NCBI GenBank assembly: GCA_039030475.1
Contig: JBCCEC010000012.1
Coordinates: 2,744 to 66,743, forward strand
Length of the DNA: 64,000 nt
DNA from: Bacteroidota bacterium
GTDB taxonomy: Bacteria; Bacteroidota; Bacteroidia; Flavobacteriales; Flavobacteriaceae
Direction of reading: 5' to 3'
Shown: in pieces, positions 10,433 to 64,000 of the stretch
How the letters are laid out: each line of letters opens with the position of its first letter
How positions within the stretch are numbered: position 1 is the stretch's first letter
Position numbers and translations under genes: made by a program
Notes under the pieces: generated by a model
Database searches by the model: none
Seen by the model: the letters and a program-made list of their open reading frames with translations, nothing else
Told to the model about the DNA's origin: nothing

Positions 10433-10513
10433 GATGATTTTTTATTTAGAGTAATGGGCTAAGGTAATATTAAGAACGATTTCCGCTACTTTTACAAGAA
10501 AGATTTTCTGGAA

Positions 10514-15039: not shown

Positions 15040-15228
15040 TTAATTTTTAAGAAAATATTTAATGAAGAATAGGAATATTATGAATGTGATAAAGGAAATC
15101 ATAACCCATTTTACTCCTTTGTAATTTTTGATATGCAAGGATTTATCCTTTCGATAAGATATTGCGATTATAGTTACAAAAGCTACAACAAAAAGAGCTG
15201 CAAAAATTAATTGTCCTGTGCTGAACAT
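15040..15228 (-). CDS. Small two-TM membrane protein
   Basis: 62 aa, two hydrophobic segments around SYRKD. Confidence 0.75.
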   Translation of the reverse strand: MFSTGQLIFAALFVVAFVTIIAISYRKDKSLHIKNYKGVKWVMISFITFIIFLFFIKYFLKN

Positions 15229-15268
15229 ATTTTCTATTTTTACGCAAAGCTAAATCAAAACGAGAATA

Positions 15269-15655
15269 ATGGAAAGTAAAATTAAGGCAGTAGAATTGTT
15301 TCACAACTCTTTTGGTCTTGGAGTGCTGCAGGAACCCAAAGCAGATTTGGGAGCAGCAAAAAATAAGTTGCGATTTAACCTCATGGATGAGGAAAACAAG
15401 GAGTATTTGGAAGCTGCCAACGATGGAGATTTAATTGAGGTTGCCGATGCACTGGGAGATATGCTCTATATTCTTTGTGGAACAATTTTGGAACACGGCA
15501 TGCAGTATAAAATAGGAGAGGTCTTTGAGGAAATTCAGCGAAGCAATATGAGTAAATTAGGATTGGACGGCAAACCTATTTATCGTGAAGATGGAAAAGT
15601 GCTAAAAGGACCAAATTATTTTAAACCGAATATAGAAGGCGTTCTGGATAAATAA
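15269..15655 (+). CDS. MazG-like nucleoside-triphosphate pyrophosphohydrolase
   Basis: LMDEENKEYLEAA, EVADALGD, RSNMSK..REDGKVLKGPNY. Confidence 0.9.
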   Translation: MESKIKAVELFHNSFGLGVLQEPKADLGAAKNKLRFNLMDEENKEYLEAANDGDLIEVADALGDMLYILCGTILEHGMQYKIGEVFEEIQRSNMSKLGLDGKPIYREDGKVLKGPNYFKPNIEGVLDK

Positions 15656-15685
15656 AAAAAGCACCTTTTTAAAGGTGCTTTTTTT
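15654..15685. terminator. Bidirectional terminator
   Basis: A7-GCACCTT..AAGGTGC-T7 between convergent genes. Confidence 0.85.
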
Positions 15686-15688
15686 GTG

Positions 15689-50784: not shown

Positions 50785-53215
50785 GAGTACAGTTTTTTTG
50801 CTGCTATTTTCCATTTTGGTGCAAGCCCAAACGAGTTTTTCCGGTGTAGTAACAGGTATTGACAATCAGCCCATTTCTGGAGCGGAAGTCTACCTTAAGG
50901 AATTGGAATTACTAACAACCACATCGACAACGGGAAATTTTTATTTTGATAACATTTTACAAGGAAGCTACAATTTGGTTGTTTTTGCCTATGGCTACAA
51001 GGTTTATGAGCAGAATATAAATACATCAAGTCAAGATTTGGCTATTTCTCTTGAACCGATAGGGGAGAAACTGTCCGAAGTGGTTTTAACCAAAGAACGG
51101 GAAAAAGTATTTGCGCTGCGAAACCTTAGAAAAGTTGAAGGAACCGCTATATATGCAGGTAAGAAGACAGAGGTAGTGGCAATTGATTTGATCACAGGTA
51201 ATTTAGCATCAAACAATGCACGTCAGATTTACGGTCAAGTCGTAGGACTAAATATATATGATAACGGTGATGCCGGACTGCAGTTAAATATTGGGGGAAG
51301 GGGTTTAGATCCAAATCGTACCGCAAATTTTAATGTACGCCAGAATGGTTACGATATCAGTGCCGATGTCTTAGGGTATCCAGAAAGCTATTATACACCA
51401 CCAGTAGAAGCTTTGAATGAAATACAGGTTGTACGTGGAGCAGCATCTTTACAGTATGGAACACAATTTGGAGGCTTGATCAACTTTAAGTTTAGGCGAC
51501 CCAATCCAAATAAAAAAATAGAACTGATATCTCGACAGACCATCGGATCAAATGGTTTGTTCACTAGTTTTAATAGCTTGAGCGGTACTTCGGGCAAGTT
51601 TAGTTATTATAACTATTTTAATTACAAGCAAGGCGATGGCTTTCGACCAAATTCAAATTTTAATGCTAGAAACTATCACGGTCATTTTGGGTATCAAATA
51701 TCTGAAAAGACAAAACTTACTTTCGAGGCTACTATACTGGACTATTTGGCGCAACAACCGGGAGGATTGACGGATGTGCAGTTCAATGAAGACCCTACCT
51801 TTAGCAACCGAGAACGCAATTGGTTCGATATTGATTGGAAGTTGGGTTCTTTACGTTTGGATCATAGCTTCTCGCCAGCAACAGATTTTAGCCTCAATCT
51901 ATTTGCATTGGATGCGTCGCGGAAAGCCTTAGGATTTAGGGAAAACAGAGTGGATATAATTGACGAGGGGGGCGTTCGAGAATTATTAGTCGATGATTTT
52001 CAGAATTGGGGTGCAGAAGCCCGCTTGCTATCACGTTATAAAATTGGTCAAAAAGATGCGATTTTTTTAATAGGGTCTAAGTATTATCAGGCGTTTAATA
52101 AACAACGCCAGGGAGCTGGCCCTGCGACAACGGCTCCAGATTTCGATTTTGTGGATGAGGAATTCCCTGCATTTCCAAGAAAATCCAGCTATAATTTCCC
52201 CAACTTAAACTTGGCCATTTTTGGAGAGAATATCATTAATTTGAGTGACCGTTTTTCAATCACACCTGGCTTTCGTTTTGAGTATATAAAAACATCTGCT
52301 ACTGGTAATTTTACCGCGATATTTACCGATTTGGCCGGTAATGTTTTAGAAACCCGTATAACCGAGGAAGATCGTGACTTAGAGCGTTCTTTTGTGTTGT
52401 TGGGACTAGGTGCCTCCTATAAACTTAATAAGAGTGTTGAATTTTATGGAAACATATCTCAAAACTATCGTTCTGTGACTTTTAATGATTTAAGGGTAAT
52501 AAATCCATCACAAATCATCAGTGAAGATTTAGAGGATGAAGAGGGCTTTACAGCAGATATTGGTGCAAGAGGTAGGTTTAAGGAATTTTTTTCCTATGAT
52601 ATTAGTAGTTTTTTATTGTATTATGATAATCGAATTTCTAGGACAATTCCATTTGTTGATGATCAAAATAGAGTTAAGAACCTAACGGATAATGCTGGTA
52701 CGGCTGTCATTTATGGCTTGGAACTTCTTGGCGATTGGAATGTAAAAGAAACATTGTTGGATGTTTCGCAAGATATAAAGCTTAACCTATTTGGAAATCT
52801 TGCCTTGACTTCTTCTGAATATATAGAACAAGCAGAGGGAATCAACAATGTAGAAGGGAAAAAGGTTGAACATATACCAGAAATAAACTTTCGTTCTGGA
52901 GTGCGATTTGGCTATAAAGATTTTCTTGGTTCTTTACAGTACACCTATTTATCAAGACAATTTAATGATCCGCAAAATTCGCCGCCTCTTACCGAATCAA
53001 CTGCACCTAGTGCTGGTATTATTGGTGAATTACCAGCTTATGGCATTATGGATTTATCTTTTTCATACGCTTATAAACAGTTCAGGTTAGAAGCAGGTAT
53101 CAACAACCTTTTTAACGAATCTTACTTTACAAGAAGAGCGACAGGATACCCTGGACCCGGAATTATTCCAGCAGAACCAAGGACATTTTATACAACGCTT
53201 CAGATTAAATTGTAA
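50765..53215 (+). CDS. TonB-dependent receptor (FecA-like) with N-terminal extension
   Basis: Signal peptide; plug motifs IGGRGL, EIQVVRGAASLQYG; C-terminal YTTLQIKL; start placed at MRSKVF. Confidence 0.93.
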   Translation: MRSKVFKSTVFLLLFSILVQAQTSFSGVVTGIDNQPISGAEVYLKELELLTTTSTTGNFYFDNILQGSYNLVVFAYGYKVYEQNINTSSQDLAISLEPIGEKLSEVVLTKEREKVFALRNLRKVEGTAIYAGKKTEVVAIDLITGNLASNNARQIYGQVVGLNIYDNGDAGLQLNIGGRGLDPNRTANFNVRQNGYDISADVLGYPESYYTPPVEALNEIQVVRGAASLQYGTQFGGLINFKFRRPNPNKKIELISRQTIGSNGLFTSFNSLSGTSGKFSYYNYFNYKQGDGFRPNSNFNARNYHGHFGYQISEKTKLTFEATILDYLAQQPGGLTDVQFNEDPTFSNRERNWFDIDWKLGSLRLDHSFSPATDFSLNLFALDASRKALGFRENRVDIIDEGGVRELLVDDFQNWGAEARLLSRYKIGQKDAIFLIGSKYYQAFNKQRQGAGPATTAPDFDFVDEEFPAFPRKSSYNFPNLNLAIFGENIINLSDRFSITPGFRFEYIKTSATGNFTAIFTDLAGNVLETRITEEDRDLERSFVLLGLGASYKLNKSVEFYGNISQNYRSVTFNDLRVINPSQIISEDLEDEEGFTADIGARGRFKEFFSYDISSFLLYYDNRISRTIPFVDDQNRVKNLTDNAGTAVIYGLELLGDWNVKETLLDVSQDIKLNLFGNLALTSSEYIEQAEGINNVEGKKVEHIPEINFRSGVRFGYKDFLGSLQYTYLSRQFNDPQNSPPLTESTAPSAGIIGELPAYGIMDLSFSYAYKQFRLEAGINNLFNESYFTRRATGYPGPGIIPAEPRTFYTTLQIKL

Positions 53216-53222
53216 AGCAAAA

Positions 53223-53251
53223 GAAAGCGGCTGAATCCAATAGCCGCTTTC
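53223..53251. terminator. Terminator between convergent TBDR and DUF6686 genes
   Basis: GAAAGCGGCT / AGCCGCTTTC. Confidence 0.8.
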
Positions 53252-53283
53252 CAAACCTACTAACTCCTGAGAACACTTAGGAA

Positions 53284-53634
53284 TTAGTTTTCTATAAACT
53301 GATAATTAATGTCTTTGTGCTTCAGTAGCCTAATCTGCGCTAGCTCAATATGCAACAAATTTTTAATTTCTTCCAATTCTTGTTTGTTTACAAGTATGGT
53401 AAAATACTTATTTCCTACTGAAATTGGTATTTTTCGTTGATTTAGGGATTGAATATGATTTTTTTCCCAGTACGTTACATTCAACCGGAAAATGTATTTT
53501 CTAAAATTTTCAAGTTCCCATTCATAGAATTCAAAACATAGATTGCTGAAGACCAACTGGAAAAGTTTGTTATGATTGCAAAAAGTAAACAATCCATTTT
53601 TAGTTTGGCTTAAAACTTCTATAGATTGGCACAT
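53284..53634 (-). CDS. DUF6686-like protein
   Basis: 116 aa; FQLVFSNLCFEF, ELEEIKNLL pattern. Confidence 0.65.
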   Translation of the reverse strand: MCQSIEVLSQTKNGLFTFCNHNKLFQLVFSNLCFEFYEWELENFRKYIFRLNVTYWEKNHIQSLNQRKIPISVGNKYFTILVNKQELEEIKNLLHIELAQIRLLKHKDINYQFIEN

Positions 53635-53665
53635 AATATTGCGTATTTGGATGTAAATATATCAA

Positions 53666-53688
53666 TTATTTATAATGGGTCTAAATAA
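53666..53688. promoter_or_regulatory. Putative Fur box 3
   Basis: TTATTTA-taatgggtc-TAAATAA, same 7-9-7 geometry, 32 nt upstream of the DUF6686-like start. Confidence 0.65.
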
Positions 53689-53764
53689 AAACCTGATGTA
53701 TTTTTCAAATATCCTATTTGGATTAAAATATGGTATCTTTGCACGCAATTAATTCGTAATTGCA

Positions 53765-55237
53765 ATGGAAGCCCACCTAAATAAGATTATCGGCGAAGGT
53801 CTAACGTACGACGATGTACTGCTTGTACCTGGATATTCTGAAGTACTGCCAAGAGAAGTCAACATTCAAACAAAGTTTACCAGAAACATTACCATTAACG
53901 TACCCATTGTCTCCGCTGCAATGGATACTGTGACCGAGTCGCAAATGGCAATTGCCATGGCCCAAGAGGGTGGAATAGGCGTCTTGCATAAAAATATGAC
54001 CATTGAACAGCAGGCGATTAAGGTAAGGAAGGTAAAGAGAGCCGAAAGTGGAATGATCATTGATCCTGTTACACTTCCGTTAGATTCTGTTGTTCGAGAT
54101 GCAAAGGCCAATATGAAAGAGCATAGTATTGGCGGAATCCCTATAGTTGATGAAGATAAAAAGTTGATAGGCATCGTTACCAACAGGGATTTACGATTTG
54201 AAAAGAACGACGATAGGCCCATTGCCGAAGTAATGACTTCAGAAAATTTGGTGACTGTAGGGGAGGGCACATCACTTTCCGATGCTGAAGTAATTTTGCA
54301 AGAAAACAAAATTGAGAAACTTCCGGTAGTCAATGATCAGTATGTACTCGTAGGACTCATAACGTTTAGGGATATTACCAAATTGACCCAAAAACCTATG
54401 GCAAACAAAGACCAATATGGTCGTTTGCGTGTAGCTGCGGCGATTGGGGTGACTCCAGATGCAGTTAATAGGGCAGGGGCATTGGTGAACTCGGGAGTTG
54501 ATGCTATAGTTATTGATACCGCACACGGCCATACCAAAGGTGTGGTTAATATTCTGAAAGAAGTAAAAAAATCTTTCCCTGAGTTGGAAGTAATCGTAGG
54601 AAATATTGCTACTGGCGAAGCCGCCAAATATTTGGTCGAAGCTGGAGCGGATGCGGTCAAAGTTGGTATTGGCCCTGGCTCTATTTGTACGACCAGGGTG
54701 GTTGCCGGTGTGGGATTTCCACAATTTTCTGCAGTATTGGAAGTTGCAGCTGCGATAAAAGGTTCCGGTGTTCCTGTAATTGCCGATGGCGGTATACGCT
54801 ATACAGGGGATATTCCAAAAGCTATTGCCGCAGGTGCGGATACGGTCATGTTGGGCTCATTACTGGCAGGTACAAAAGAATCTCCCGGGGAAACAATCAT
54901 CTACGAAGGGCGTAAGTTCAAGTCGTATCGTGGTATGGGTTCTGTGGAGGCTATGAAAGAAGGTAGTAAAGACCGTTATTTCCAAGATGTGGAAGATGAC
55001 ATCAAAAAATTGGTTCCTGAAGGTATCGTTGGACGTGTACCCTATAAAGGAGATCTCTACGAAAGCATGCACCAATTTATTGGCGGGTTACGTGCCGGAA
55101 TGGGCTATTGTGGTGCCAAGGATATCGAAACGCTTAAAGATTCAGGACGTTTTGTGAAAATTACGTTTAGCGGTATCAACGAGAGCCATCCGCATGATGT
55201 AACCATAACTAAAGAGAGTCCTAATTATAGTAGATAG
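53765..55237 (+). CDS. guaB: IMP dehydrogenase
   Basis: [12 protein letters not shown] pair, [17 protein letters not shown]. Confidence 0.98.
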
Positions 55238-55323
55238 TCGACGGATATTTGGCTATTGGTCAATGTTGATTTTTGGTTGACGTAATCAATTCACTTTGTT
55301 TGCTTATCTTTTGGGAATTAAAG

Positions 55324-56454
55324 ATGAGTTTAGCCAACCCAGTTTATGTATTGACCGTTTTATGCCTCATGGTGATCTTATCATTTTATGCAGGTAAGAC
55401 CAAATGGGGCAAACCTTTTGGTGCAGCGTTATTGGTTATTGTTTTTACTGCAATCCTTGCTAATCTAAAGCTTATTCCCTCAGCCTCGAATTCCATTCCA
55501 TTGTACAAGGCCATATTTAGCTATTTGGCTCCTATTTCAATATTTTATTTGCTTTTGGGAGCTAATTTAACGGCTATAAAGAAAGCAGGAACACCAATGA
55601 TAGTTCTGTTTTTGATTGGTTCATTGGCCACGGTGCTTGGAATTATTTGTTCATGGTATTTAATTTCGCCTCAAGCTATTTTGGGAGATGATGGAAAAGT
55701 ATTGGCGGGAATGCTCACCGGAACGTATACTGGCGGTAGCATAAATTTTAATGCAGTTGCTTTGGCGTATAATTTTCAAGAAAAAGGGAGTTTATATGCA
55801 GGTACTATTGCTGTTGATAATGTGGTCACTGCTATTTGGGTGGTAGTGACAATAGCCATACCTGTAGTACTTCGACGTTTTTTTAAGGACAAAAAAATAG
55901 GAAGTCCTAATTCCACCAAGGATGAAACTGTTTCGGATGCGTTGGATTTGTATGCTTTGGGGATCCTTTTGGTTTTAGGTTTAACGGCATTCCTAGTATC
56001 CGAACTTATTGCCGATTTATTTCCTAAGATACCCTCTATTATTACCATTTCCACAATAGGAATCGTACTGGCCCAGTTTCCATTTATTACCAAGCTTAAG
56101 GGGAGTCGAACCCTAGGGTTATATTTAGTTTACTTATTTCTAGCGGTTATTGGTGCTTACTGTGAAATTGGAGCCGTTGTAGCACTTAAGGAAATAGGGT
56201 TTACCTTATTTGGATTTACCTTATTGGCTGTGGTAATTCATGGATTGCTAATTATCCTTTTAGGGTCTTTGGTATTCAAGGACTGGGATATGATTGCAAT
56301 AGCGAGTCAGGCTAATGTGGGTGGAAGTACATCTGCTATTGCCTTAGCTGAATCTTTTAATCGTAAAGAACTTATTTTACCTGCAATATTGGTAGGCACA
56401 TTGGGAAATGCTCTAGGAACTTATTTAGGCTTTATGGTCGTGACACTATTATAG
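55324..56454 (+). CDS. DUF819 family membrane protein
   Basis: About 11 TM segments; GTYTGGSINF, ASQANVGG, GTLGNALGTYLG. Confidence 0.88.
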   Translation: MSLANPVYVLTVLCLMVILSFYAGKTKWGKPFGAALLVIVFTAILANLKLIPSASNSIPLYKAIFSYLAPISIFYLLLGANLTAIKKAGTPMIVLFLIGSLATVLGIICSWYLISPQAILGDDGKVLAGMLTGTYTGGSINFNAVALAYNFQEKGSLYAGTIAVDNVVTAIWVVVTIAIPVVLRRFFKDKKIGSPNSTKDETVSDALDLYALGILLVLGLTAFLVSELIADLFPKIPSIITISTIGIVLAQFPFITKLKGSRTLGLYLVYLFLAVIGAYCEIGAVVALKEIGFTLFGFTLLAVVIHGLLIILLGSLVFKDWDMIAIASQANVGGSTSAIALAESFNRKELILPAILVGTLGNALGTYLGFMVVTLL

Positions 56455-56467
56455 AATCGTCAGACTT

Positions 56468-56992
56468 TTATTTTCCAGCGTATGTCTGCCAATCCTGGTC
56501 TTTATAGATATTGTCACCGAAGTAACGAGCAATTTGCATAAAAGGCTTTACCTTTTGATAACCCGGTACAGGGGAAAGCATTTTTAGATTTTCGTCCAAA
56601 AACACAACCGTAGGATAACTCATTTTACCTTGTAAAAGTGCAGCGGCGAACTCATGATAGCCTCTTCTTCCAGAAGCTACATATTTAAAGGATTTACCCT
56701 CGTATTCAATAGGGTCTTTACCTTCCGCATCTAATTTAACCATATAAAAATTGTCCTGCATATAGGCGGCAACTTCCGGATTTTGGAATGTATCCTTATC
56801 CATTTTCTTGCACCAGCCACACCAGTCCGTGTAAACATCTACGAAAATTTTCTTTGTATTCCCTTCGTTTTTGGTGAGTGCTACTGCCTCATCCCAAGAT
56901 ACCCATTGTACATCTTGTGCTTGGGATTGGAATCCTGTTAAAAGAAAAAAAAGTAAGCCAATTTGTGTGAAGTAGGTAAAAATCGAGCGCAT
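56468..56992 (-). CDS. Exported thioredoxin-like protein (DUF255-like)
   Basis: TDWCGWCKKM, SYPTVVF. Confidence 0.9.
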   Translation of the reverse strand: MRSIFTYFTQIGLLFFLLTGFQSQAQDVQWVSWDEAVALTKNEGNTKKIFVDVYTDWCGWCKKMDKDTFQNPEVAAYMQDNFYMVKLDAEGKDPIEYEGKSFKYVASGRRGYHEFAAALLQGKMSYPTVVFLDENLKMLSPVPGYQKVKPFMQIARYFGDNIYKDQDWQTYAGK

Positions 56993-57073
56993 TGTTCTTT
57001 ATTTTTTTTGAGGTTTAGTCCATGGACCAGTACAAAACTAACGAAAATTGTGCCAAAATAGTATTGTACTGCG

Positions 57074-57113
57074 TAATGCCAACAATCAGGTTAAGTTGAT
57101 ATAGCGTTGGTTA
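57074..57113 (-). repeat. Truncated attC-like element E (possible array boundary)
   Basis: Minus strand: ACCAAC-gctatatcaaCTTAACCtgatt-GTTGGCA; CTTAACC shared with element B. Confidence 0.35.
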
Positions 57114-57170
57114 TCCGGGAATTAGGTTAAGAATAACACTAATGATTTCAACTTTTTGGACCAATTTGAT

Positions 57171-57602
57171 TTAATCCTCTTCATTTTTGGTAATGATCAG
57201 TTCTATTGATGCTGATGAATTTTTGTAGGTATCAGATAGGATTCGGATTTTATAATTCTCAAAGGGAATAGTAAAATTAGCTTTGTTTTTAATTTCGGAA
57301 CTATAAAAACGGATACTTTTTTCGATATCCTTTACTGCCATTTTTAAAGTATATGCTACATTGGAAAAATAATTACGATTCTCATCTTCAGGAGGTGCAT
57401 CATACCCCCATTCTTCAACAATATCTGTTAGTTTAATGGTTATACGTTCATCTGGATTTCCAATGATCAAACTTTCAGCACTGGATACGGTAAGGACTTG
57501 TCCAAATTGCATTTTTCGTTTTTTCGTTTTTTCTTGCGCGATTAAATTTCCGTAAATAGTAGATATTGCAATCAATAATAATATTATCGTGTTTTTTTTC
57601 AT
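57171..57602 (-). CDS. Hypothetical secreted protein
   Basis: 143 aa with signal peptide; 4-nt overlap with the paiB remnant. Confidence 0.7.
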   Translation of the reverse strand: MKKNTIILLLIAISTIYGNLIAQEKTKKRKMQFGQVLTVSSAESLIIGNPDERITIKLTDIVEEWGYDAPPEDENRNYFSNVAYTLKMAVKDIEKSIRFYSSEIKNKANFTIPFENYKIRILSDTYKNSSASIELIITKNEED

Positions 57603-58243
57603 AATTCATCTTTTGCAAATAGTGCTTTCTTTCTTTTTTCCATCTCTTCTGCAATGACAAACCCACTTTCGTCTTGTTGCTTCAGTTTCTTGATAATATT
57701 TTGATAGCTCTCCTCATCGCGGTCTTGACTTAGTTTGAATACCGTGTCCATTTCCTTTATTTCAATCTCAAAACCTACAATTAATTTAAGCGCTTTTTGT
57801 TTGAACTTGCTAGGCAAATTATCAAAAACAGTTGTTGACTTTTCATTTTGTTTTTCGAAATGAATTGATGTGATTCTAAGTATTTCTTCCAATTCTAGTT
57901 CATCAACAAACTTTATTGTTCCTTTCACGTGCACACTCATGTAATTTCAAGTGGAGGGTGTATTTGGGTTGCTGTACCATGTGCCACTTATATAGGTATG
58001 CTTTCCAGTAAAAACTACAAGTACATTTGCATTATGCAAGAATGATTTGTGGTGGTCGGTATTCTTCATAATGTGGCCGCGAAGAACCTCTCTTCCTTCT
58101 TTAACTTCAATAAAAACTGGGATCTGGGTGGCAATAGGTTTGTTCTCTAAATCACATCCTGTTATAAAAGCAAAAGGATTGTTCGCGACAAACTCTCTAA
58201 TGATCAGTTCATTGTTTTCTTTATGGTACGGAAGATTATACAT
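57599..58243 (-). pseudogene. paiB: PaiB-like FMN-binding negative regulator split by an in-frame TGA
   Basis: Reads HTYISGTWY..PST*NYMSVHVKG; TGA at 57947-57949 where the family has Trp (PTWNY). Confidence 0.85.
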
Positions 58244-58318
58244 GAGTTTAGTTTATTGTCTTGTTCCCACTCTTTACGGCTTAATTCAAAAAGTATTTTT
58301 TTAACTTCTTGTTTTCTG

Positions 58319-58442
58319 AACAGTTTTGAATAAGCGCAATAGCGGATAAAATGCTACCACTTTTCAGATTACAATATACTTAAATAACAACAACGGTTCG
58401 AGTCTAAACCCAAACCGCTATTGTTTTTATGTTTTATGTAAT
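58319..58442. repeat. Degenerate attC-like element D
   Basis: AAC-agttttgaataagcg-CAATAGCGG (58337-58345) ... CCGCTATTG (58415-58423). Confidence 0.5.
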
Positions 58443-58504
58443 CAGAATTAAATTTTACTTTCCTTCAAGTCTGTCGTTTTGTACTTTGTTGGCTTGAGCT
58501 AGTA

Positions 58505-59575
58505 TTATTCCAGTTTTGCCATTAATCCCCAGCCGTTGGCTTTATCTATAATGACACAGTGTATTTTGTTTTCTCCTTTTTTAAGCGGCAGGTATAATTT
58601 GTTGGTATTAATGGCCATATGCCCCATATATTGTATTCCCTTCGTTCTAAAAGCATTATTGCCTTTAAAAATAAGTTCACCATTCAGGTAGAGCATTATT
58701 TTGTCACTATAATCAAATGAAAAAATTCTAGTTTCGTTACTATCCGCTTTTATCGTAGTGGATGCTATGGTGTAGTCTTCTTTGTTTCTCTCAAAGGCTC
58801 CAGAAGAAGTTTTCTTAAGATATTTAGAAATAGGTAAGAGGCCAGATTTTTCCGTTGTGACAATCTGGTACTTTTCTTTTAAGAAATCATTGAATTGGAG
58901 ATTCCCTTCGTATGGTATGGCTTTGGTAATTTCCCATTGCCTTATTATTGCAGGGTCAATAGTATCGGTCTTATCGGTTTGGACATCATCTAACACATCA
59001 CTGGATGTAAATCTGAAATTTGAAAACCTATTCTTGAATAAGGAGAAAAGACCAATTTCCCCATAGCTATGGTCTGTTCTAAGGTCATCGATAGTCATGA
59101 CCTTTTCATCATTAACAAAAACCTCGGTCTTTTTATTGGCAACTTCTACACGTAGCGTATTCCAACCTGTATTTTTAAACGAAACCTTTGCTTGGTATTC
59201 TCTATACAGTTGCCAATTCGACTCATTATTAAAGATGGGCGTATACTGAACAGCATCTACTTGGTTGGATTTATGCAATCTCATATATACTTCTTCCATG
59301 GTGTCGTCTTGCTTTCTAAAGGTAATGCCTGCAAAACTTCTGATGGAGTTGGCGTACACATCTACCTCGATAGTCCCGTTTGCGAAAGTTTGATTTTTAA
59401 CGGTGGCTCTTCCACCATTTAAAATTAGCGTTTCCCTGTTGTCAAATCTTTCGAACGAAGCTTCTTTTGGAATATCCCAATTAGAAGTGATCATATCGAT
59501 TTTTGTAGTAGAATTTTGACCGATGGCCAGTTGAAAACTTAATACTATGATGAATGGGCAAAGAAGTTTTTGCAT
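58505..59575 (-). CDS. Secreted DUF1080-like protein with C-terminal beta domain
   Basis: Signal peptide; FANGTIEVDV, WNTLRVEV, GEIGLF. Confidence 0.7.
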   Translation of the reverse strand: MQKLLCPFIIVLSFQLAIGQNSTTKIDMITSNWDIPKEASFERFDNRETLILNGGRATVKNQTFANGTIEVDVYANSIRSFAGITFRKQDDTMEEVYMRLHKSNQVDAVQYTPIFNNESNWQLYREYQAKVSFKNTGWNTLRVEVANKKTEVFVNDEKVMTIDDLRTDHSYGEIGLFSLFKNRFSNFRFTSSDVLDDVQTDKTDTIDPAIIRQWEITKAIPYEGNLQFNDFLKEKYQIVTTEKSGLLPISKYLKKTSSGAFERNKEDYTIASTTIKADSNETRIFSFDYSDKIMLYLNGELIFKGNNAFRTKGIQYMGHMAINTNKLYLPLKKGENKIHCVIIDKANGWGLMAKLE

Positions 59576-59632
59576 GACTTTTTATTTACAAATTTCCGTT
59601 TGTTTATCTTCTTTTGGCTTATCAGTTGATTG

Positions 59633-60502
59633 CTAATTTCTATCATTTTGGTAATTATCCTTATAGGTGGAAGGGCTAACTCCCGCCATTTTTCTAAAAA
59701 ATCGGGTCAAATTGTTAGGTTCGCTAAATTTTAAGGAATGTGCTATTTCGGCAATTGTTTTATCCGAATAGCGAAGTTCTGTTTTTACCTCTTGCAATAG
59801 TCTATTATTTATTACTTCTTTTGATGTATGCCCGGTATGTTCTTTTACCATAGCATTCATTTGATGACGTGTTATATGCAATAGATTACAATAGTCCGCA
59901 ACAGAATGTAATGTGCGAATGTTCAGTTCAAGCAGTTCTTTAAATTTATAAATTATTGAATTTGATTGGGTTTCGGGCGAAATGTTATAACATTTTGAAT
60001 ACAAACGATTTAACTTTGACAACGAGAAGTATAAAAGCGAACGTAATATATGAGGGCTATCATTTTGATAATTCTTTATCTCAGCGATGATTTCATTTAA
60101 AACGAATCGTATAACATCGTAATCTTCACTGATCAACTGTAAATATTGAGGGTATTGGTAATTGTAAAAGTACTGTAACCGATAAGCGAACAATTTATCA
60201 TCAAAAAAGTCCGCTAAAAAATCATTCTGAAAAACAAGATGAAAACCTTTGACTCCAGAAAGCGAAATTTTACAACTTTTCTTTTGGAAAGGGCAGATGA
60301 AAAAAAGACTATTTTCTGCAACCTCCAACACATGTCCGTTCAATTCAATCGTTCCACTGGCTTTTTCAAAAACCATGATTTCAAAAAAATTGGTTGTGTG
60401 AGGTGCAGGGTCGAAAAAAACGTTTGGGTTTCCTTCAAACTTGTGCAGATCCATCAGTAATTCGAATCCGTACTTTCTTTTTTCAAAAATAAATGTTCGC
60501 AA
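59633..60502 (-). CDS. AraC family regulator
   Basis: TIAEIAHSLKFSEPNNLTRFFRKMAGVSPS; TTG start. Confidence 0.92.
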   Translation of the reverse strand: MRTFIFEKRKYGFELLMDLHKFEGNPNVFFDPAPHTTNFFEIMVFEKASGTIELNGHVLEVAENSLFFICPFQKKSCKISLSGVKGFHLVFQNDFLADFFDDKLFAYRLQYFYNYQYPQYLQLISEDYDVIRFVLNEIIAEIKNYQNDSPHILRSLLYFSLSKLNRLYSKCYNISPETQSNSIIYKFKELLELNIRTLHSVADYCNLLHITRHQMNAMVKEHTGHTSKEVINNRLLQEVKTELRYSDKTIAEIAHSLKFSEPNNLTRFFRKMAGVSPSTYKDNYQNDRN

Positions 60503-60531
60503 ATTGTAATTTTATTTTATTGTGATTTTTC

Positions 60532-60612
60532 AATGTTCTACAATGTGCGGGCAGCGGAACATAGACTTGAATGGTATCGTATATACAGCGTGGCGGGCTT
60601 TTGCAGAACATT
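60532..60612. repeat. Degenerate element C: one attC-like arm plus rearranged copy of the 62454-62512 hairpin element
   Basis: 60551-60573 matches 62490-62512 at 20/23; flanked by AATGTTCTACA / TGCAGAACATT inverted repeats. Confidence 0.6.
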
Positions 60613-60643
60613 TTGGTATAATTCTTTCATAAATTTTTTAATA

Positions 60644-61798
60644 TTAATACTTAGAGTATCCCAGCAGTTTAAAGAGTTCAGGTGATTGCTTTAAATAGTG
60701 ATCTTTATTAGTTTCTTGGAACCAGGCTTTTGATATTTTTTCATTGTTGTAAAGACGTCCATCTTTCCAATCTGAAATTCCTTGAATAGAAAGCCTTTGC
60801 CAGTCTTCGTTTATGAAACTAACTGCCTTAATATTCTTGTTATAGATAAAGGTGAAAAAATTGACAAACCATTGATCCCACACTTTAGTGTTTTCTTTAT
60901 CAATACCTTTGATTGGGTTGGACTCTGCAATCATTATTGGTTTCTTGTGTGCTTTGGCAAAATTCAAAACGGTATCACAATAAGAACCGAAGTTAGCACT
61001 GCCATACGCATGACCAAAAACGGAGATGCCTATCCAGTCCACGTAGTTGTCACCGGGATACCATGCGGACAACTTATAATCTTTGAACGGTTTGGAAGCA
61101 TATGAATGCCAGACAAAGGCAATATTGTTAACTTCTTTTTTCCGCAACAGATCAACGATATGCCGGTATGCCTTTACATACTCCTTGGGCTCTAGTTCGT
61201 TATGTGGCCCGTCAAATTCATAGCCTATCCTCAAATATATAGGTCGGTTGGTAGATTTTGCCCAAGCCCCGTATTTTTTGATGACCTTATCATAATCACC
61301 TTTGCCGGCAAAGCCGGCAATATTCCATTTACCTACCATCCACATGGCACTGTGCACCACAGTATTGGGAAACTTATCAACTAACATTTGGTGATTTTGT
61401 GTGCCGCCGGTATCATTTTTATGAGATTCTGTAATACCTTTAAACTCTGGTATTCCCCAATAAGCTGACCAGCCACCCGGAATTTTTTGACCAGGAAAAC
61501 TCTCCAGATATTCTGAAATACTTTCAACCGTTTGACCCATGATAAGCAGGGTTTTTTTATGAGGAGGAACAAATTTTGTCTGTTCGTAATCGTAAACAAA
61601 ATTAGGATCAACTTCTACATTGATTTGCGATACCATCTTTTCAATGGATAATTCGGTTGATACCGAATCTTTAACTATTTTTTCCTGTGACCAAGCGAAT
61701 GGTGGTAAAGAAAACAATAGACCAATCGTTAAAAGAATAATCCTATATTGACTTGTTGATTTACAGATCTTCATACTCAAATTGATTTCTTTTTTCAT
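60644..61798 (-). CDS. GH26 glycoside hydrolase, resembling beta-1,3-xylanase
   Basis: LRIGYEFDGPHN (acid/base Glu), WYPGDNYVDW, KPIMIAES (nucleophile); signal peptide. Confidence 0.8.
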   Translation of the reverse strand: MKKEINLSMKICKSTSQYRIILLTIGLLFSLPPFAWSQEKIVKDSVSTELSIEKMVSQINVEVDPNFVYDYEQTKFVPPHKKTLLIMGQTVESISEYLESFPGQKIPGGWSAYWGIPEFKGITESHKNDTGGTQNHQMLVDKFPNTVVHSAMWMVGKWNIAGFAGKGDYDKVIKKYGAWAKSTNRPIYLRIGYEFDGPHNELEPKEYVKAYRHIVDLLRKKEVNNIAFVWHSYASKPFKDYKLSAWYPGDNYVDWIGISVFGHAYGSANFGSYCDTVLNFAKAHKKPIMIAESNPIKGIDKENTKVWDQWFVNFFTFIYNKNIKAVSFINEDWQRLSIQGISDWKDGRLYNNEKISKAWFQETNKDHYLKQSPELFKLLGYSKY

Positions 61799-61826
61799 TT
61801 TTATATAAGTTGACGCGGCTTTGAAA

Positions 61827-61966
61827 TTGGCGCTGATGGTCTCGGTTAAGATTTCGTTGTGGAATCATCCGCAGGATTATTCTGTTGTAGAAATCAGCCT
61901 TATTTTATAAATTGAACTTTGTTTTAACTCTTTGCCACAGTAAATTATAAGTATTGTTAGCTATTG
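61827..61966. repeat. attC-like element B
   Basis: TTAAGATTTCGTTGTGG ... CCACAGTAAATTATAAG imperfect arms; ends GTTAGC at 61956. Confidence 0.55.
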
Positions 61967-61969
61967 CTT

Positions 61970-62431
61970 TTATTCAATAAAGATATAGTCTGTATAATCA
62001 GTAGTTTCTTGAAGTGATTTAGTGTATTTTGGTAGACTGTCCAATAATATAATTTGTCCAGGCCTCCAGAGCTTTAATGCTACTTCGGGGATATTTGATT
62101 CTCCAGAATGTTCATACGGAAAGTAAAAATCCCTTGTAGCTTCATTGTCAAAAATTAACAGATGAGCGAACTTGTCTTTATTGTCGCCTCTTTGTCCCTT
62201 AATTATATAAGATTTAACTCCTGGAACGTATTTGTTGAAAGTTGGGGTCAATTGTTCATGTCCAAATTTTTCCAACTCTTCAGGTGTAGTGGTTTCCAAA
62301 AGAGTCAATGGTCTAAAAGCCATTACCCTTCCCGATTCAAAATCAAATTCAGTTTTTTCATTTTTTGACGAAAACGAAATTAAAATCATTGTTGTTAAGA
62401 CAATAACGCATGAGTAAATTATTTTTTTCAT
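61970..62431 (-). CDS. Hypothetical secreted protein
   Basis: 153 aa ORF with signal peptide, bounded by palindromic elements. Confidence 0.7.
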   Translation of the reverse strand: MKKIIYSCVIVLTTMILISFSSKNEKTEFDFESGRVMAFRPLTLLETTTPEELEKFGHEQLTPTFNKYVPGVKSYIIKGQRGDNKDKFAHLLIFDNEATRDFYFPYEHSGESNIPEVALKLWRPGQIILLDSLPKYTKSLQETTDYTDYIFIE

Positions 62432-62453
62432 GTCTAAAGGTTTTTAAATTCAA

Positions 62454-62512
62454 GTTGTAGCCGCCCGCACATTCGAGTCCATGTGGAGCGCAGCGGAACA
62501 TGGACTCGAACG
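62454..62512. repeat. GC-rich hairpin element (13-bp perfect stem)
   Basis: TTCGAGTCCATGT-ggagcgcagcgga-ACATGGACTCGAA, preceded by GTTGTAGCCGCCCGCAC. Confidence 0.75.
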
Positions 62513-62637
62513 TTTTGGTGTATGGGCAGTAATAGCGAAATTACATGCAATACTATTCGAGAAGTAATTTACGTAATAAAAAAGAATAGCGATTTGAATG
62601 AGTACTCAAATCGCTATTACTTATACACGTTGCTGAC
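62509..62637. repeat. attC-like element A (best preserved)
   Basis: AAC..GTGTAT-gggc-AGTAATAGCGA ... TCGCTATTACT-t-ATACAC-GTT; starts a few nt after the stop of 62643-63479. Confidence 0.7.
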
Positions 62638-62642
62638 AATAG

Positions 62643-63479
62643 TTATTTGACTTTAACTTGACTCCAAATCCCAGTTTTAGCAGTTTCTTGAGCATATTCT
62701 AAAAATGTTTTTGCTTTTCTGCCTAATACGCGTTCAATGTCATTAACTACTTGCTGATTTTTTGGATTGGTCAAAACATGACTAAATAAGTACTCAATTA
62801 ACCACACAACATCATTAGGTATTTGCATTTGTTTCATACCATCTATATACTGTTCTAACGTGATGTCGTAAAAGTTTAAACTTCTGTCGCTAGTCTTTGA
62901 AATAATGTTAATGATATCTTTAAAGGTGATTAATTCTGGACCTGTTACCTCAATGATTTCGCCGTTATAAGAATCATCAAGTAAGACAGTGGCCGCAACT
63001 TCGGCAATATCATTAGCATCTACAAATGGAATTAAGACATCAGACATTGGTAATGCCACTTCTCCAGATAGAATAGGCTCTAAAAAGAAACTTTCACTCC
63101 AATTTTGGTTAAACCAAGAAGCTCTGACAATGGTATAATCCATCCCAGAATTTATAACAATTTTTTCACAAGCTTCAGCTTCTGCTTCCCCTTTTCCAGA
63201 GAGTAAAACCATTTTTTTAACCCCTAATTCTTTGGCTAGATAAGTTAAACTCTCTATGGCTTCTTTAGCTCCTGGAACAGCCAAGTCAGGATAATAGGTA
63301 ACATACATTTTTTCAATGCCGTTTAAGGCATTTACCCAAGTCTCTTTATCATCCCAATCAAAGCTTGGTGATGCTTGTCTTGAGCCAATTCTAGGTTCAA
63401 ATCCTTTGTTTTGTAATTGCTCTACTACACGGCGACCAGTTTTTCCGGTTCCACCGATAACTAAAATGTTTGTTTTCAT
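62643..63479 (-). CDS. NmrA-like NAD(P)H-binding protein
   Basis: VIGGTGKTG, IVRASWFNQN, FVDANDIA, TGPELIT. Confidence 0.9.
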   Translation of the reverse strand: MKTNILVIGGTGKTGRRVVEQLQNKGFEPRIGSRQASPSFDWDDKETWVNALNGIEKMYVTYYPDLAVPGAKEAIESLTYLAKELGVKKMVLLSGKGEAEAEACEKIVINSGMDYTIVRASWFNQNWSESFFLEPILSGEVALPMSDVLIPFVDANDIAEVAATVLLDDSYNGEIIEVTGPELITFKDIINIISKTSDRSLNFYDITLEQYIDGMKQMQIPNDVVWLIEYLFSHVLTNPKNQQVVNDIERVLGRKAKTFLEYAQETAKTGIWSQVKVK

Positions 63480-63489
63480 AATAATTGTT

Positions 63490-63975
63490 TTAAAATGTTT
63501 TTTGAATAAATATTGATATTAATAAGAGGGTAAATGAAATCATACTTGAAATGGTTCTAATGCTTTGATAATGATTCCAAGCACTTTCATAATAGACTCT
63601 AAAATTCTTTAGTTCTACTAAACTAAGTTTGGTAATATTCAATGCCTCTAATTCATTGTTTAAAGGGACGTTTCCTAAAGCTGTAACCCCAAAAGTGCCA
63701 ATTAGATAAATGATTGCTGATGCCAAGACCAACCAAAACACAAGTTTGTTATTAAACTGCAAGCAGGTATTTATAATCAATGTAATCAAGCTTCCAAAGA
63801 ACACTATAAAGAATGCTGGGTTTAAGATTTCTCTATTGATGCTCTGCATGCTTTCCAAGTAAGTAAAATCACCTACTCTTTTTGTTCCCAATATGACCGA
63901 AACAGACCAAGCGAAGAAAAAACCTGTGGATAGTGCATTCAATAGGACCGTTGTAAAAAGAACATAAGTTTTCAT
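63490..63975 (-). CDS. DUF1772 / anthrone oxygenase-like membrane protein
   Basis: GFFFAWSVSV, MQSINREILNP, GNVPLNNEL, W..YQSIRT. Confidence 0.88.
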   Translation of the reverse strand: MKTYVLFTTVLLNALSTGFFFAWSVSVILGTKRVGDFTYLESMQSINREILNPAFFIVFFGSLITLIINTCLQFNNKLVFWLVLASAIIYLIGTFGVTALGNVPLNNELEALNITKLSLVELKNFRVYYESAWNHYQSIRTISSMISFTLLLISIFIQKTF

Positions 63976-64000
63976 GCCTTTATTTTTTTGGTCAAGTGAT

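What the first reader, a model, noticed from the sequence alone, without database searches (positions are those of the whole stretch)
57074..64000. Decaying integron-like cassette array with attC-like spacers and no integrase in view
Seen: functionally unrelated genes (hypothetical + paiB, DUF1080-like + AraC, GH26, hypothetical, DUF1772 + NmrA) all lie on the minus strand. Most intergenic gaps hold an imperfect palindrome with AAC/GTT-type ends: A 62509-62637, B 61827-61966, C 60532-60612, D 58319-58442, E 57074-57113. Element A has 11-bp and 6-bp stems separated by a 4-vs-1 bulge and an asymmetric spacer next to the AAC/GTT ends. A and B begin within about 10 nt of the upstream stop codon. 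Known: this geometry is typical of attC sites. The ends deviate from the RYYYAAC consensus and B-E are eroded. Inference: an old cassette array of a Bacteroidota-type system whose recombinase lies elsewhere or is not a classical IntI.
Basis: partly seen in the sequence, partly recalled or inferred. Interest (0 to 1): 0.75.

Follow-up and report, generated by a model that had tools for sequence, protein, structure and literature searches.

The report
Orphan integron-like cassette array, Flavobacteriaceae
The last 7 kb of this Flagellimonas/Muricauda window is a decayed, recombinase-less string of mobile gene cassettes. It belongs to an integron-like gene-capture system widespread in Bacteroidota, whose recombinase lacks the domain that defines classical integron integrases.

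Summary
Elements A (62499-62645) and D (58311-58444) are clear copies of a ~145-nt structured element. B is an eroded copy, C only a 3' remnant, and E unproven.

In related genomes this element ends each unit of ORF-element arrays. The arrays start directly downstream of a 371-379-aa Xer/IntI-like tyrosine recombinase, in the same orientation, and begin with an attI-like ...AAACAA-GTT site.

The decisive test used 49 consecutive element pairs. In 33, the four variable bases after GTT of one element are the exact reverse complement of the four bases before AAC of the next (4% by chance). This is the integron cassette signature and places the crossover at G|TT.

The stems covary. Two conserved A.C mismatches make the non-coding strand the better folder.

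The recombinase lacks the IntI-specific insert, having 25 aa where VchIntIA has 68.

This genome holds only recombinase fragments. In the window several sites are mutated (GTT to ATC or ATT) and paiB carries a nonsense codon. The array sits between lysA and a thioredoxin-like gene, which are adjacent in about 24 congeners.

The closest described relative is the rAID-1 cluster of gut Bacteroidales. I call it a new variant of a known kind.

The parts
62499..62645 (-). Element A, the best-preserved attC-like site; it ends the DUF1772-NmrA cassette. Parts: R'' GTCAGCAAC 62629-62637; stem 2 at 62623-62628 / 62518-62523; L stem at 62610-62620 / 62528-62538; R' CGTTCGAG 62505-62512 (G 62511, TT 62510-62509). 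The NmrA stop codon TAA (62643-62645) lies in the conserved 5' leader.
   Evidence: nhmmer profile E 1e-18 to 1e-21; fold z -3.7; homologous to elements in relatives.
62575..62618 (-). Intrinsic-terminator-like hairpin inside element A: a 13-15-bp stem AATAGCGATTTGA/TCAAATCGCTATT followed by CTTTTTTATT. It uses the element's 5' L arm as its own 5' arm.
   Evidence: Terminator scan; fold.
62472..62510 (-). Second hairpin unit, beginning exactly at the TT of A's R': TTCGAGTCCATGT-13 nt-ACATGGACTCGAA. Its 3' arm is the complement expected for the R'' of the cassette that starts here. Origin unexplained.
   Evidence: Inverted repeat I24; fold z -3.5; found nowhere else in the genome or loci.
61815..61969 (-). 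Element B, an eroded full-length element that ends the hyp153 cassette. R'' ATAGCTAAC (61956-61964) is intact. In the 3' arm (61835-61862) the stem is damaged and R' GTT is replaced by ATC.
   Evidence: 79-84% identity to elements in G006, G013 and G001; profile E 1e-3; no significant fold.
60566..60598 (-). Element C remnant: only the 3' arm survives (GCCCGCCACGCTG-TATATAC-GATACC-ATT), with R' GTT mutated to ATT. It follows GH26.
   Evidence: Weak profile match to the 3' half (E about 1). It is followed by the same cassette leader as A.
60535..60571 (-). Degenerate copy of the second hairpin unit, forming the 5' leader of the AraC-DUF1080 cassette (TTCAAGTCTATGTTCCGCTGC...).
   Evidence: Direct repeat D1, 79%; manual alignment.
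58311..58471 (-). Element D, ending the AraC-DUF1080 cassette. Core 58311-58444: L stem 58415-58423 / 58337-58345, inner hairpin 58386-58425, R' CTGTTCAG with GTT at 58319-58321. The displaced or mutated R'' GACTTGAAG (58463-58471) is the exact reverse complement of the cassette start TTCAAGTC.
   Evidence: Profile E 1e-13 to 1e-22; fold z -3.1, stronger on the minus strand; 8/8 complementarity.
58321..60571 (-). The one cassette whose two ends still obey the rule: TTCAAGTC...AraC (59633-60502)...DUF1080/3-keto-disaccharide hydrolase (58505-59575)...GACTTGAA...element D...G.
57073..57112 (-). Element E: AACCAAC-24 nt-GTTGGCATTAC. A possible terminal scar (R'' and R' only) at the edge of the variable region; not significant on its own.
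   Evidence: Conservation with about 24 congeners, and with another organism in run X2, begins at 57065. GTTGGCA is a common R' type.
57599..58243 (-). paiB (FMN_bind_2) pseudogene. An in-frame TGA at 57947-57949 replaces the Trp of ...PSTWNY....
   Evidence: Two ORFs match profile positions 1-94 and 107-167; translation.
57171..63975 (-). Cassette cargo, all co-oriented: hyp143 (57171-57602), paiB*, DUF1080, AraC, GH26 (60644-61798), hyp153 (61970-62431), NmrA (62643-63479), DUF1772 (63490-63975). GC is 34.6% against 37.5% for the rest of the window.
56468..57065 (-). Conserved thioredoxin-like gene and its promoter region, forming the core-genome flank. In congeners lysA (with or without a 137-aa membrane gene) lies directly upstream. 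In this genome lysA is on contig C73, followed by two genes and another element.

Best explanation
Window 57066-64000 continues for at least 1.2 kb on the contig and probably joins contig C73. It is an integrase-less, decaying array of mobile gene cassettes inserted between lysA and a thioredoxin-like gene of a Flagellimonas/Muricauda genome.

Structure of a cassette. Each cassette carries one to three genes and ends in a ~145-nt structured element that plays the part of an integron attC site. Its parts are:
- R'' (NNNNYAAC);
- a short unpaired spacer (4 nt against 6 nt);
- an 18-bp stem with two conserved A.C mismatches;
- a variable central hairpin, often terminator-like;
- R' (CCGTT-RNNN).

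Shown in relatives. The arrays begin immediately downstream of, and co-oriented with, a 371-379-aa Xer/IntI-like tyrosine recombinase and an attI-like site (...ATATAAACAA-GTT). The bases 3' of GTT in each site belong to the next cassette.

Inferred mechanism. The recombinase binds the element folded from the non-coding (bottom) strand, where the two A.C positions become G.T wobbles. It cleaves between G and TT and exchanges strands with attI or another element. Circular cassettes are thereby excised and inserted.

State of this genome. The recombinase survives only as fragments and several sites are mutated, so the array is frozen. The elements can now act at most as transcription terminators or insulators.
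For: 1. A and D are homologous to each other and to intergenic elements of other species.
2. In relatives, ORF-element arrays follow the recombinase on the same strand: L031, L032, L033, L034, L035, L037, L041. This also holds in other genera. Of 65 element hits beside recombinase genes, 63 are downstream on the same strand, although 2.7 times more upstream DNA was searched.
3. Cassette rule: in 33 of 49 consecutive pairs the 4 nt after GTT equal the reverse complement of the 4 nt before AAC of the next element. Random expectation is 4.3%; an element matches its own partner in only 2 of 90 cases.
4. attI: the 7-10 nt after ...AAACAAGTT match the first cassette's R'' flank in 8 loci. The same rule holds in two unrelated repeat families, including a Paludibacter MAG.
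5. Covariation: 89.3% of cells are paired against 69.5% in shuffles; 183 against 51 double changes; 15 of 19 pairs are compensatory; slid controls give 27-43%.
6. Strand asymmetry: 196 top-strand A.C against 12 G.T. The bottom strand is more stable in 79 of 90 (arms only) and 68 of 90 (whole element).
7. The same cassettes occur in different contexts with breakpoints at the predicted sites: L013/L014 at CCGTT|, and C77/L044 at YAA|C. C115 starts G|TTGTAAGC and its R'' is GCTTACAAC.
8. In the window, the AraC-DUF1080 cassette keeps 8/8 end complementarity.
9. The region is absent from about 24 congeners, whose lysA and trx genes are adjacent.
10. Decay: mutated sites, paiB nonsense codon, and no intact recombinase in the genome.
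Against: - No recombination event was observed directly.
- Near-identical strains (runs X2, X4) show the same gene order and no cassette polymorphism.
- Only one cassette in the window still obeys the end-complementarity rule. B, C and E are weak on their own.
- The core of A is a textbook intrinsic terminator, so termination could be the element's main present role.
- About 15 further copies in this genome are scattered singly rather than in arrays.
- The contig ends 1.2 kb beyond the window, so a recombinase in the assembly gap cannot be excluded.
- The bottom-strand mechanism is inferred from sequence asymmetry alone. The asymmetry could instead reflect selection against folding of the mRNA.
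Confidence: 0.85

Rival explanations
1. This is an ordinary accessory-gene island. The palindromes are intrinsic terminators or REP-like extragenic repeats with no role in recombination.
For: - A contains a canonical terminator.
- 24 of 90 elements carry a terminator-like hairpin with a T tail on the coding strand, against 8 on the other strand.
- Copies in this genome are scattered behind single genes.
- B, C and E do not fold significantly.
Against: - Terminators or REPs do not explain why the bases after GTT match the next element's R'' flank in 33 of 49 pairs.
- They do not explain the attI match.
- They do not explain the strict placement downstream of a recombinase.
- They do not explain why the outer stems fold better on the non-transcribed strand.
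Confidence: 0.06
2. This is a classical integron remnant: a CALIN whose attC sites are substrates of a canonical IntI integrase.
For: - The overall attC-like anatomy and AAC/GTT ends.
- The crossover rule.
- TIGR02249 is among the best NCBIfam matches of the associated recombinase.
Against: - No protein in 41 genomes of the genus reaches the IntI cut-off.
- The array-linked recombinase scores 197-216 bits against a cut-off of 265. It lacks model positions 181-238, having 25 aa where VchIntIA has 68.
- The recombinase is co-oriented with the cassettes.
- The sites have no conserved extrahelical bases.
- IntegronFinder surveys report almost no integrons in Bacteroidetes (10.1101/2022.02.28.482270).
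Confidence: 0.03
3. The elements are MITE-like non-autonomous transposons, or passengers of another transposable element, that landed behind genes.
For: - They are imperfect palindromes of 120-150 nt present in multiple copies.
- IS3 and IS21 elements interrupt some arrays.
Against: - They show strict orientation and a 0-25-nt distance to the upstream stop codon.
- They have no target-site duplications.
- The flanks co-vary with the neighbouring element rather than being duplicated.
- No transposase is consistently associated.
Confidence: 0.03

Closest known systems
Sedentary chromosomal integrons and their integrase-less derivatives (CALINs; attC sites such as the ~120-nt Vibrio cholerae repeats)
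   Same: - Arrays of co-oriented, functionally unrelated cassettes.
- Each cassette ends in an imperfect palindrome with AAC...GTT ends, an unpaired spacer, a long stem and a variable terminal structure.
- The crossover at G|TT means the distal R' bases belong to the next cassette.
- An attI-like site lies beside the recombinase.
- The non-coding strand is the better folder.
- Orphan arrays without a recombinase occur.
   Different: - The recombinase lacks the IntI-specific I2 insert and has a ~100-aa N-terminal extension, including a 70-aa beta/alpha domain.
- It is transcribed in the same direction as the cassettes.
- There are no conserved extrahelical bases. Instead two conserved A.C (bottom-strand G.T) positions occur.
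- The boxes are NNNNYAAC / GTTRNNN rather than RYYYAAC / GTTRRRY.
- Many sites carry terminators, and many cassettes carry their own regulators.
rAID-1 (recombinase-associated acquired interbacterial defence) clusters of gut Bacteroidales (Ross et al. 2019, bioRxiv 10.1101/471110; PMC12247911)
   Same: - Same phylum.
[quoted passage not shown]
- The intergenic repeats were described as 'reminiscent of integrons'.
- A Bacteroidales (Paludibacter) MAG in my sample obeys the same crossover rule.
   Different: - rAID-1 is defined by orphan immunity genes. The cargo here is metabolic and regulatory (NmrA, GH26, DUF1080, AraC, PaiB).
- The hosts here are marine Flavobacteriaceae.
- The published work does not define the site structure, the crossover point or an attI, and calls rAID biogenesis an open question.
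- I could not test recombinase identity to BF9343_RS08045.
'Integron-like' subgroup of simple tyrosine recombinases (Smyshlyaev et al. 2021, PMC8138268); archaeal XerA
   Same: - The recombinase's best matches are NF040815 (XerA / integron integrase, 207-229 bits), TIGR02249, and the structures 5HXY, 4A8E and 2A3V.
[quoted passage not shown]
   Different: That classification concerns the proteins only. No cassette arrays or sites were described for the insertion-less members.

Membership tests
Classical integron (IntI + attI + attC) | Integrase of the IntI family carrying the additional domain (I2 helix) in the catalytic domain | tested here: not met
   TIGR02249 scores 197-216 bits against a cut-off of 265, matched in two pieces (2-180 and 239-315). 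Against 2A3V, query 274-298 (25 aa) faces IntIA 180-247 (68 aa). No hit over the cut-off in 41 genomes of the genus.
Classical integron (IntI + attI + attC) | Cassette-associated imperfect palindromes with R''/L''...L'/R' boxes and conserved AAC/GTT | tested here: met
   Based on 90 aligned elements. AAC/GTT is paired in 93.6% of cells. The 16-pair stem shows compensatory changes in 14 pairs.
Classical integron (IntI + attI + attC) | Crossover in R' (G|TT), so that the distal R' bases derive from the next cassette and complement that cassette's own R'' | tested here: met
   33 of 49 consecutive pairs match exactly at 4/4 variable positions, against 4.3% at random. Also seen in L109 and L058. 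In the window itself only the C-to-D cassette complies.
Classical integron (IntI + attI + attC) | attI site next to the integrase gene, receiving the first cassette | tested here: met
   In relatives, a conserved ...ATATAAACAAGTT whose 3' flank complements the first element's R'' in 8 loci. Absent from the window.
Classical integron (IntI + attI + attC) | Extrahelical bases in the folded bottom strand that set strand choice | tested here: inconclusive
   No conserved bulged bases. Two conserved A.C/G.T positions (87/90 and 63/90) and an asymmetric spacer give strand asymmetry instead.
Classical integron (IntI + attI + attC) | Detection by the IntegronFinder attC covariance model | not testable with these tools
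   The model is not available here. Rfam has no matching family.
CALIN (cluster of attC sites lacking an integrase) | At least two attC-type sites in an array with no integrase nearby | tested here: met
   A and D are strong and B is an eroded homologue. No tyrosine recombinase lies on contig C12. The sites are not canonical attC, so this is a CALIN only by analogy.
rAID-1 | 5' XerD-like recombinase with more than 44% identity to BF9343_RS08045 | not testable with these tools
   The reference sequence could not be fetched. Bacteroidales MAG homologues are 41-50% identical to the Flagellimonas enzyme.
rAID-1 | Two or more co-directional downstream genes of low GC, with conserved intergenic motifs | tested here: met
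   Arrays in relatives. GC of the window array is 34.6% against 37.5%.
rAID-1 | Cargo of orphan immunity genes against interbacterial toxins | tested here: not met
   The window cargo is NmrA, DUF1772, GH26, AraC, DUF1080 and PaiB plus two unknown ORFs.
REP/BIME or MITE repeats | Copies dispersed irrespective of gene orientation; target-site duplications or a RAYT/transposase partner | tested here: not met
   At nine of ten further genomic loci a co-oriented ORF ends 5-25 nt upstream of the element; C77 is the exception. The flanks complement the neighbouring element and are not duplicated.
Intrinsic terminator | GC-containing hairpin followed by a T run on the transcribed strand | tested here: met
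   Met for the inner hairpin of A and for 24 of 90 elements. It does not account for the outer stems or the R boxes.

The most novel reading that the evidence does not exclude
Bacteroidota carry their own widespread lineage of integrons, probably including the rAID-1 clusters of gut Bacteroidales. These are gene-capture platforms run by a Xer/XerA-like tyrosine recombinase that never had, or has lost, the I2 insert thought indispensable for recombining folded single-stranded sites. The recombinase would recognise hairpins of the bottom strand marked by two conserved G.T wobbles instead of extrahelical bases. Its ~100-aa N-terminal extension, which includes a 70-aa beta/alpha domain, might supply the missing function.
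Probability: 0.6. Interest if true: 0.85.

Novelty: new variant of a known kind. Interest (0 to 1): 0.7.

Why it matters
Integrons are regarded as nearly absent from Bacteroidetes. Their single-strand recombination is attributed to one structural innovation, the I2 helix of IntI (eLife 2020, PMC7790495).

A phylum-wide system that follows the integron cassette rules with an insert-less recombinase bears on several questions:
- It would show either an independent route to the same solution or the ancestral state of integrons.
- It would give a concrete, testable mechanism for how rAID-1 arrays of gut Bacteroidales are built. That question was still called open in 2025.
- It would reveal a large pool of mobile accessory genes in marine Flavobacteriaceae that current integron finders do not report.

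This particular window adds an example of how such arrays die. The recombinase is lost, the sites erode, and the cargo begins to pseudogenise at a non-canonical chromosomal location.

Tried and rejected
- Rfam scan of 50000-64000 at E up to 1: nothing relevant.
- BLAST of the intergenic elements against the own genome: no hits. The profile search was needed to find the copies.
- Classical IntI model TIGR02249: no hit over the cut-off in 41 genomes.
- The rest of contig C12 beyond the window holds a small membrane ORF and a truncated AraC gene, with no recombinase.
- The second hairpin family (62472-62510 and 60535-71) was searched in the genome and all loci. There are no further copies, so it remains unexplained.
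- I looked for the expected partner boxes of the cassettes ending in A, B and E and of the cassette starting after D: none found.
- I searched the fetched arrays for the window's cargo genes as cassettes. Only NmrA/DUF1772 homologues turned up, and none of those loci showed a profile hit in the combined search.
- Public runs (Logan contigs): same order in close strains and no joints at element ends.
- Literature searches for flavobacterial or Bacteroidota integron-like arrays found only IntegronFinder surveys, rAID-1 and the tyrosine-recombinase classification.
- The C115 and C27 recombinase remnants lie divergent from the neighbouring cassettes, unlike the canonical layout. I did not resolve whether they belonged to such platforms.

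Full report
**Observation**

All ORFs between 57171 and 63975 lie on the minus strand. They belong to unrelated Pfam families: two unassigned ORFs, PaiB/FMN_bind_2, 3-keto-disaccharide hydrolase (DUF1080), AraC, GH26, NmrA and Anthrone_oxy (DUF1772).

An 11-bp stem and a 6-bp stem are separated by a 1-versus-4 bulge, and an unpaired spacer sits next to the AAC and GTT ends. It starts 5 nt after the NmrA stop codon.

The five elements differ in quality:
- A and D fold much better than shuffled sequence (z -3.7 and -3.1).
- B does not (z about -0.2) and C only weakly (z about -0.8 to -1.0).
- E is a 5-bp inverted repeat.
- The core of A is also a textbook intrinsic terminator on the coding strand: a 13-15-bp stem followed by CTTTTTTATT.

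**From the window to a family**

A DNA search of 40 relatives gave two results.
- The thioredoxin-like gene (56468-56992) and its promoter are conserved in nearly all genomes of the genus, up to window position about 57065. Beyond that point only the NmrA/DUF1772 genes have homologues at the DNA level, elsewhere in the relatives' genomes.
- The intergenic elements B and D nevertheless hit several places in other species.

A and D hit the same loci, so they are homologous to each other. A profile built from six copies finds about a dozen copies in the window's own genome, and 19 after iteration. At nine of ten loci examined outside the window, a co-oriented ORF ends 5-25 nt upstream of the element; C77 lacks such an ORF. 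These upstream genes are functionally unrelated: NmrA-like, FAD monooxygenase, carboxymuconolactone decarboxylase, HxlR, a beta-lactamase-fold protein and an OMP-like protein.

**Arrays and the recombinase**

No genome of the genus has an IntI over the TIGR02249 cut-off. The best sub-threshold hits are recombinases of 371-379 aa. When I fetched their surroundings, the element proved to punctuate arrays that start right behind these genes on the same strand. Examples:
- G003: 11 elements over 16 kb.
- G011 (Flagellimonas yonaguniensis), G008, G012, G050, G002 and G041.

A scan of one genome per species found the recombinase family across Bacteroidota. In 22 of the loci the same element family lies downstream. 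Of 65 hits, 63 are downstream on the recombinase strand, although 2.7 times more upstream sequence was searched. Genera include Mariniflexile, Polaribacter, Algibacter, Flavobacterium, Arenibacter, Maribacter, Aquimarina, Aequorivita and Pseudopedobacter, plus Chitinophaga and Bacteroidales MAGs.

**The decisive test**

Ninety near-full-length elements were aligned. The consensus reads:

AAACT-NNNNYAAC-AATG-KMTATA-A-GYAATWGCGG-(about 70 variable nt)-CCGCWACTRC-T-CATAKMC-GAGACC-GTT-RNNN

I compared consecutive elements of the same array.
- In 33 of 49 pairs, the four variable bases after GTT of element n are the exact reverse complement of the four bases before AAC of element n+1.
- Random pairs do so in 4.3% of cases.
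- An element matches its own partner box in only 2 of 90 cases.
- Most exceptions span long gaps where an intermediate element was probably missed.

This is the hallmark of integron cassettes. The crossover lies at or near G|TT, so the distal half of each R' box belongs to the following cassette.

The rule extends to the start of the arrays. After the recombinase stop codon there is a conserved ...ATATAAACAA-GTT. In the 375-aa subtype there is instead a hairpin followed by ...TCCANNN-GTT. The next 7-10 bases complement the first cassette's R'' flank in eight loci. This is an attI-like site.

Two unrelated repeat families obey the same rule, including attI. One is in a Paludibacter MAG (Bacteroidales) and the other in an unnamed chromosome.

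**Structure**

I tested a three-helix model: AAC/GTT, plus an 18-position stem interrupted by two fixed mismatches. On 57 non-redundant sequences:
- 89.3% of cells are paired, against 69.5% in shuffles and 27-43% with slid partners.
- There are 183 double-change cells against 51.
- 15 of 19 pairs show compensatory changes.

The two interruptions are conserved A.C oppositions on the coding strand, present in 87 of 90 and 63 of 90 elements. Across the stem there are 196 A.C against 12 G.T. The complementary strand therefore forms an uninterrupted helix with G.T wobbles.

With DNA energy parameters the bottom strand is more stable in 79 of 90 elements (arms only) and 68 of 90 (whole element), with p about 1e-14 and 1e-8. 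I infer that the non-coding strand is the recombination substrate, as in attC sites. This is not shown. Selection against mRNA folding is an alternative.

A quarter of the elements (24 of 90, against 8 of 90 on the other strand) carry a terminator-like hairpin with a T tail on the coding strand. A is one of them.

**The recombinase**

- All catalytic residues (R, K, HxxR, H, Y) are conserved.
- The best family matches are NF040815 (XerA / integron integrase, 207-229 bits, cut-off 220) and TIGR02249 (197-216 bits, cut-off 265). The TIGR02249 match comes in two pieces that skip model positions 181-238.
- Against VchIntIA (2A3V), residues 101-273 align to 6-179 and residues 299-368 to 248-317. 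This leaves 25 residues where IntIA has 68, which is the region of the integron-specific I2 insert. Alignment to archaeal XerA is colinear.
- An AlphaFold model (mean pLDDT 78) shows a 70-residue beta/alpha N-terminal domain, a core-binding domain and a catalytic domain. Its best structural matches are XerA (5HXY, 4A8E) and IntI4 (2A3V).
- Database names are 'tyrosine-type recombinase/integrase' and 'XerD', and once 'Integron-related Integrase' in Zobellia.

**Mobility**

- The AraC + carboxymuconolactone-decarboxylase module occurs twice in this genome, on C1 and C115. On C115 it begins G|TTGTAAGC and its element's R'' is GCTTACAAC.
- A 169-aa-ORF cassette is shared by two species at 89% identity. 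The homology ends exactly at CCGTT| of R'.
- A 1.3-kb module on contig C77 of this genome is 84% identical to one inside the recombinase-linked array of an Allomuricauda MAG. The breakpoints are at YAA|C on both sides and the ORF is inverted. This fits an insertion in the opposite orientation; I did not pursue it further.

**What the window holds**

In congeners, lysA (with or without a 137-aa membrane gene) directly precedes the thioredoxin-like gene. Here lysA lies on contig C73, followed by two genes, an element (R' GTTGGCA) and the contig end. The window side runs from the end of contig C12 in this order:

AraC, small membrane ORF, DUF1772, NmrA, A, second hairpin, hyp153, B, GH26, C remnant, AraC, DUF1080, D, paiB*, hyp143, E, trx

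The array is therefore a lineage-specific insertion of more than 9.5 kb at a site that is not a recombinase platform. Its GC is 34.6% against 37.5% for the rest of the window.

State of the sites:
- A is intact-looking.
- B is full-length, but its stem is damaged and GTT is now ATC.
- C keeps only its 3' arm, with GTT now ATT.
- D has a good core and GTT, but its R'' is displaced and reads AAG.
- E is unproven.

One cassette still shows the rule. It starts TTCAAGTC right after C's R' and carries GACTTGAA 150 nt before D's GTT. An 8/8 match has a chance of about 0.003 in a 200-nt gap.

Other signs of decay:
- paiB has an in-frame TGA at 57947-57949 in place of a conserved Trp.
- The genome (97% complete) has no intact array-type recombinase. 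It holds only a truncated N-terminal half on C115 and an internally deleted remnant on C27. The best full-length relatives are 26-32% identical Xer-like proteins.
- Contigs of public runs from near-identical strains (about 40 SNPs in 7 kb) show the same order. Another organism in one of these samples shares the trx promoter only up to 57065, the same boundary.

**Comparison with what is known**

- IntegronFinder surveys report only In0 elements in Bacteroidetes, plus one complete integron in Salinibacter (10.1101/2022.02.28.482270).
- Ross et al. (10.1101/471110) described rAID-1 clusters of gut Bacteroidales. These have a 5' XerD-like recombinase, co-directional low-GC genes and intergenic repeats 'reminiscent of integrons'.
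- A 2025 follow-up still calls the mechanism of rAID biogenesis open (PMC12247911).
- Smyshlyaev et al. (PMC8138268) note that the insertion is 'not fully conserved' in their integron-like recombinase subgroup.
- I found no description of the flavobacterial arrays, their site structure, the crossover rule or the attI.
- Earlier notes of this scan reached the same reading in at least 13 other genomes. They are not independent evidence. One of them pointed me to rAID-1, which I then checked in the paper.

**Verdict**

The feature is a decayed, orphan member of an integron-like system that differs from classical integrons in four ways: its recombinase, its orientation, its site signature and the autonomy of its cassettes. 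I call it a new variant of a known kind.

Shown: homology, array architecture, crossover rule, attI, covariation, strand asymmetry, absence of the I2 region, and decay in this genome. Inferred: single-strand (bottom-strand) recombination, cleavage exactly at G|TT, resolution by replication, and present-day inactivity.

Noticed in passing
window 62472-62510 and 60535-60571: A second hairpin unit begins exactly at the TT of the R' of A, and at the mutated R' of C. In the A copy its arms are a perfect 13-bp palindrome (TTCGAGTCCATGT / ACATGGACTCGAA), followed by GTGCGGGCGGCTACAAC. The C copy is degenerate. The unit looks like a cassette's 5' leader joined to its own R'' with everything between lost. 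No other copy exists in the genome or in any fetched locus.
   Followed up: partly
window 57947-57949: paiB (FMN_bind_2) is split by an in-frame TGA where the family has Trp (PST*NY). This is probably a TGG to TGA nonsense mutation.
   Followed up: partly
window 62575-62618; also L014 7673-7715, L013 7838-7880: In the Flagellimonas subfamily the 5' L arm of the element (GCAATAGCGG) has two possible partners. On the coding strand it can pair with the adjacent sequence to form an intrinsic terminator. It can also pair with the distant 3' L arm to form the recombination hairpin. One sequence thus serves two mutually exclusive structures.
   Followed up: partly
G000 contig C77:7906-9216 versus L044:12425-13730: The same 1.3-kb module, carrying a 322-aa ORF inverted relative to the array, sits inside the 5' arm of an element in both genomes. 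It is flanked by two YAAC boxes. In its own orientation it ends in what looks like a ~55-nt mini-site (CAAAAC-AAGG-AAGAA...TTCTT-TG|TT). This suggests opposite-orientation insertion into an R'' box, and the existence of short site types like those reported for rAID-1.
   Followed up: partly
L013 (G005:C8) 7255-7302 and 7813-7836: A 169-aa ORF is flanked by a 24-nt direct repeat, AAACAGTAGCTAACAATGTATAAA. The repeat is the R'' plus the first stem arm of an element.
   Followed up: no
L014 (G018:C5) 7780-10610: Six successive intergenic gaps share the motif AAAGTTCAAATAAACGATTG just after GTTAC. This is a conserved cassette leader, possibly a promoter or ribosome-binding context, or a second site type.
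   Followed up: no
G000 contigs C115:226-798 and C27:19126-19521: Two remnants of array-type recombinase genes: one truncated, one internally deleted. Both are oriented divergently from the neighbouring cassettes, unlike the canonical co-oriented layout.
   Followed up: partly
L031 (G003:C1:3348001-3368000) 103-2409 and 14809-16055: An IS21-like pair (514 aa and 245 aa) ends the array, and an IS3-like pair interrupts it.
   Followed up: no
L025/L042 (G047:C7): A shorter recombinase of 284-287 aa from the same broad family lies next to a tRNA gene. A single element lies upstream on the opposite strand. This is a different architecture, perhaps an integrative island.
   Followed up: no
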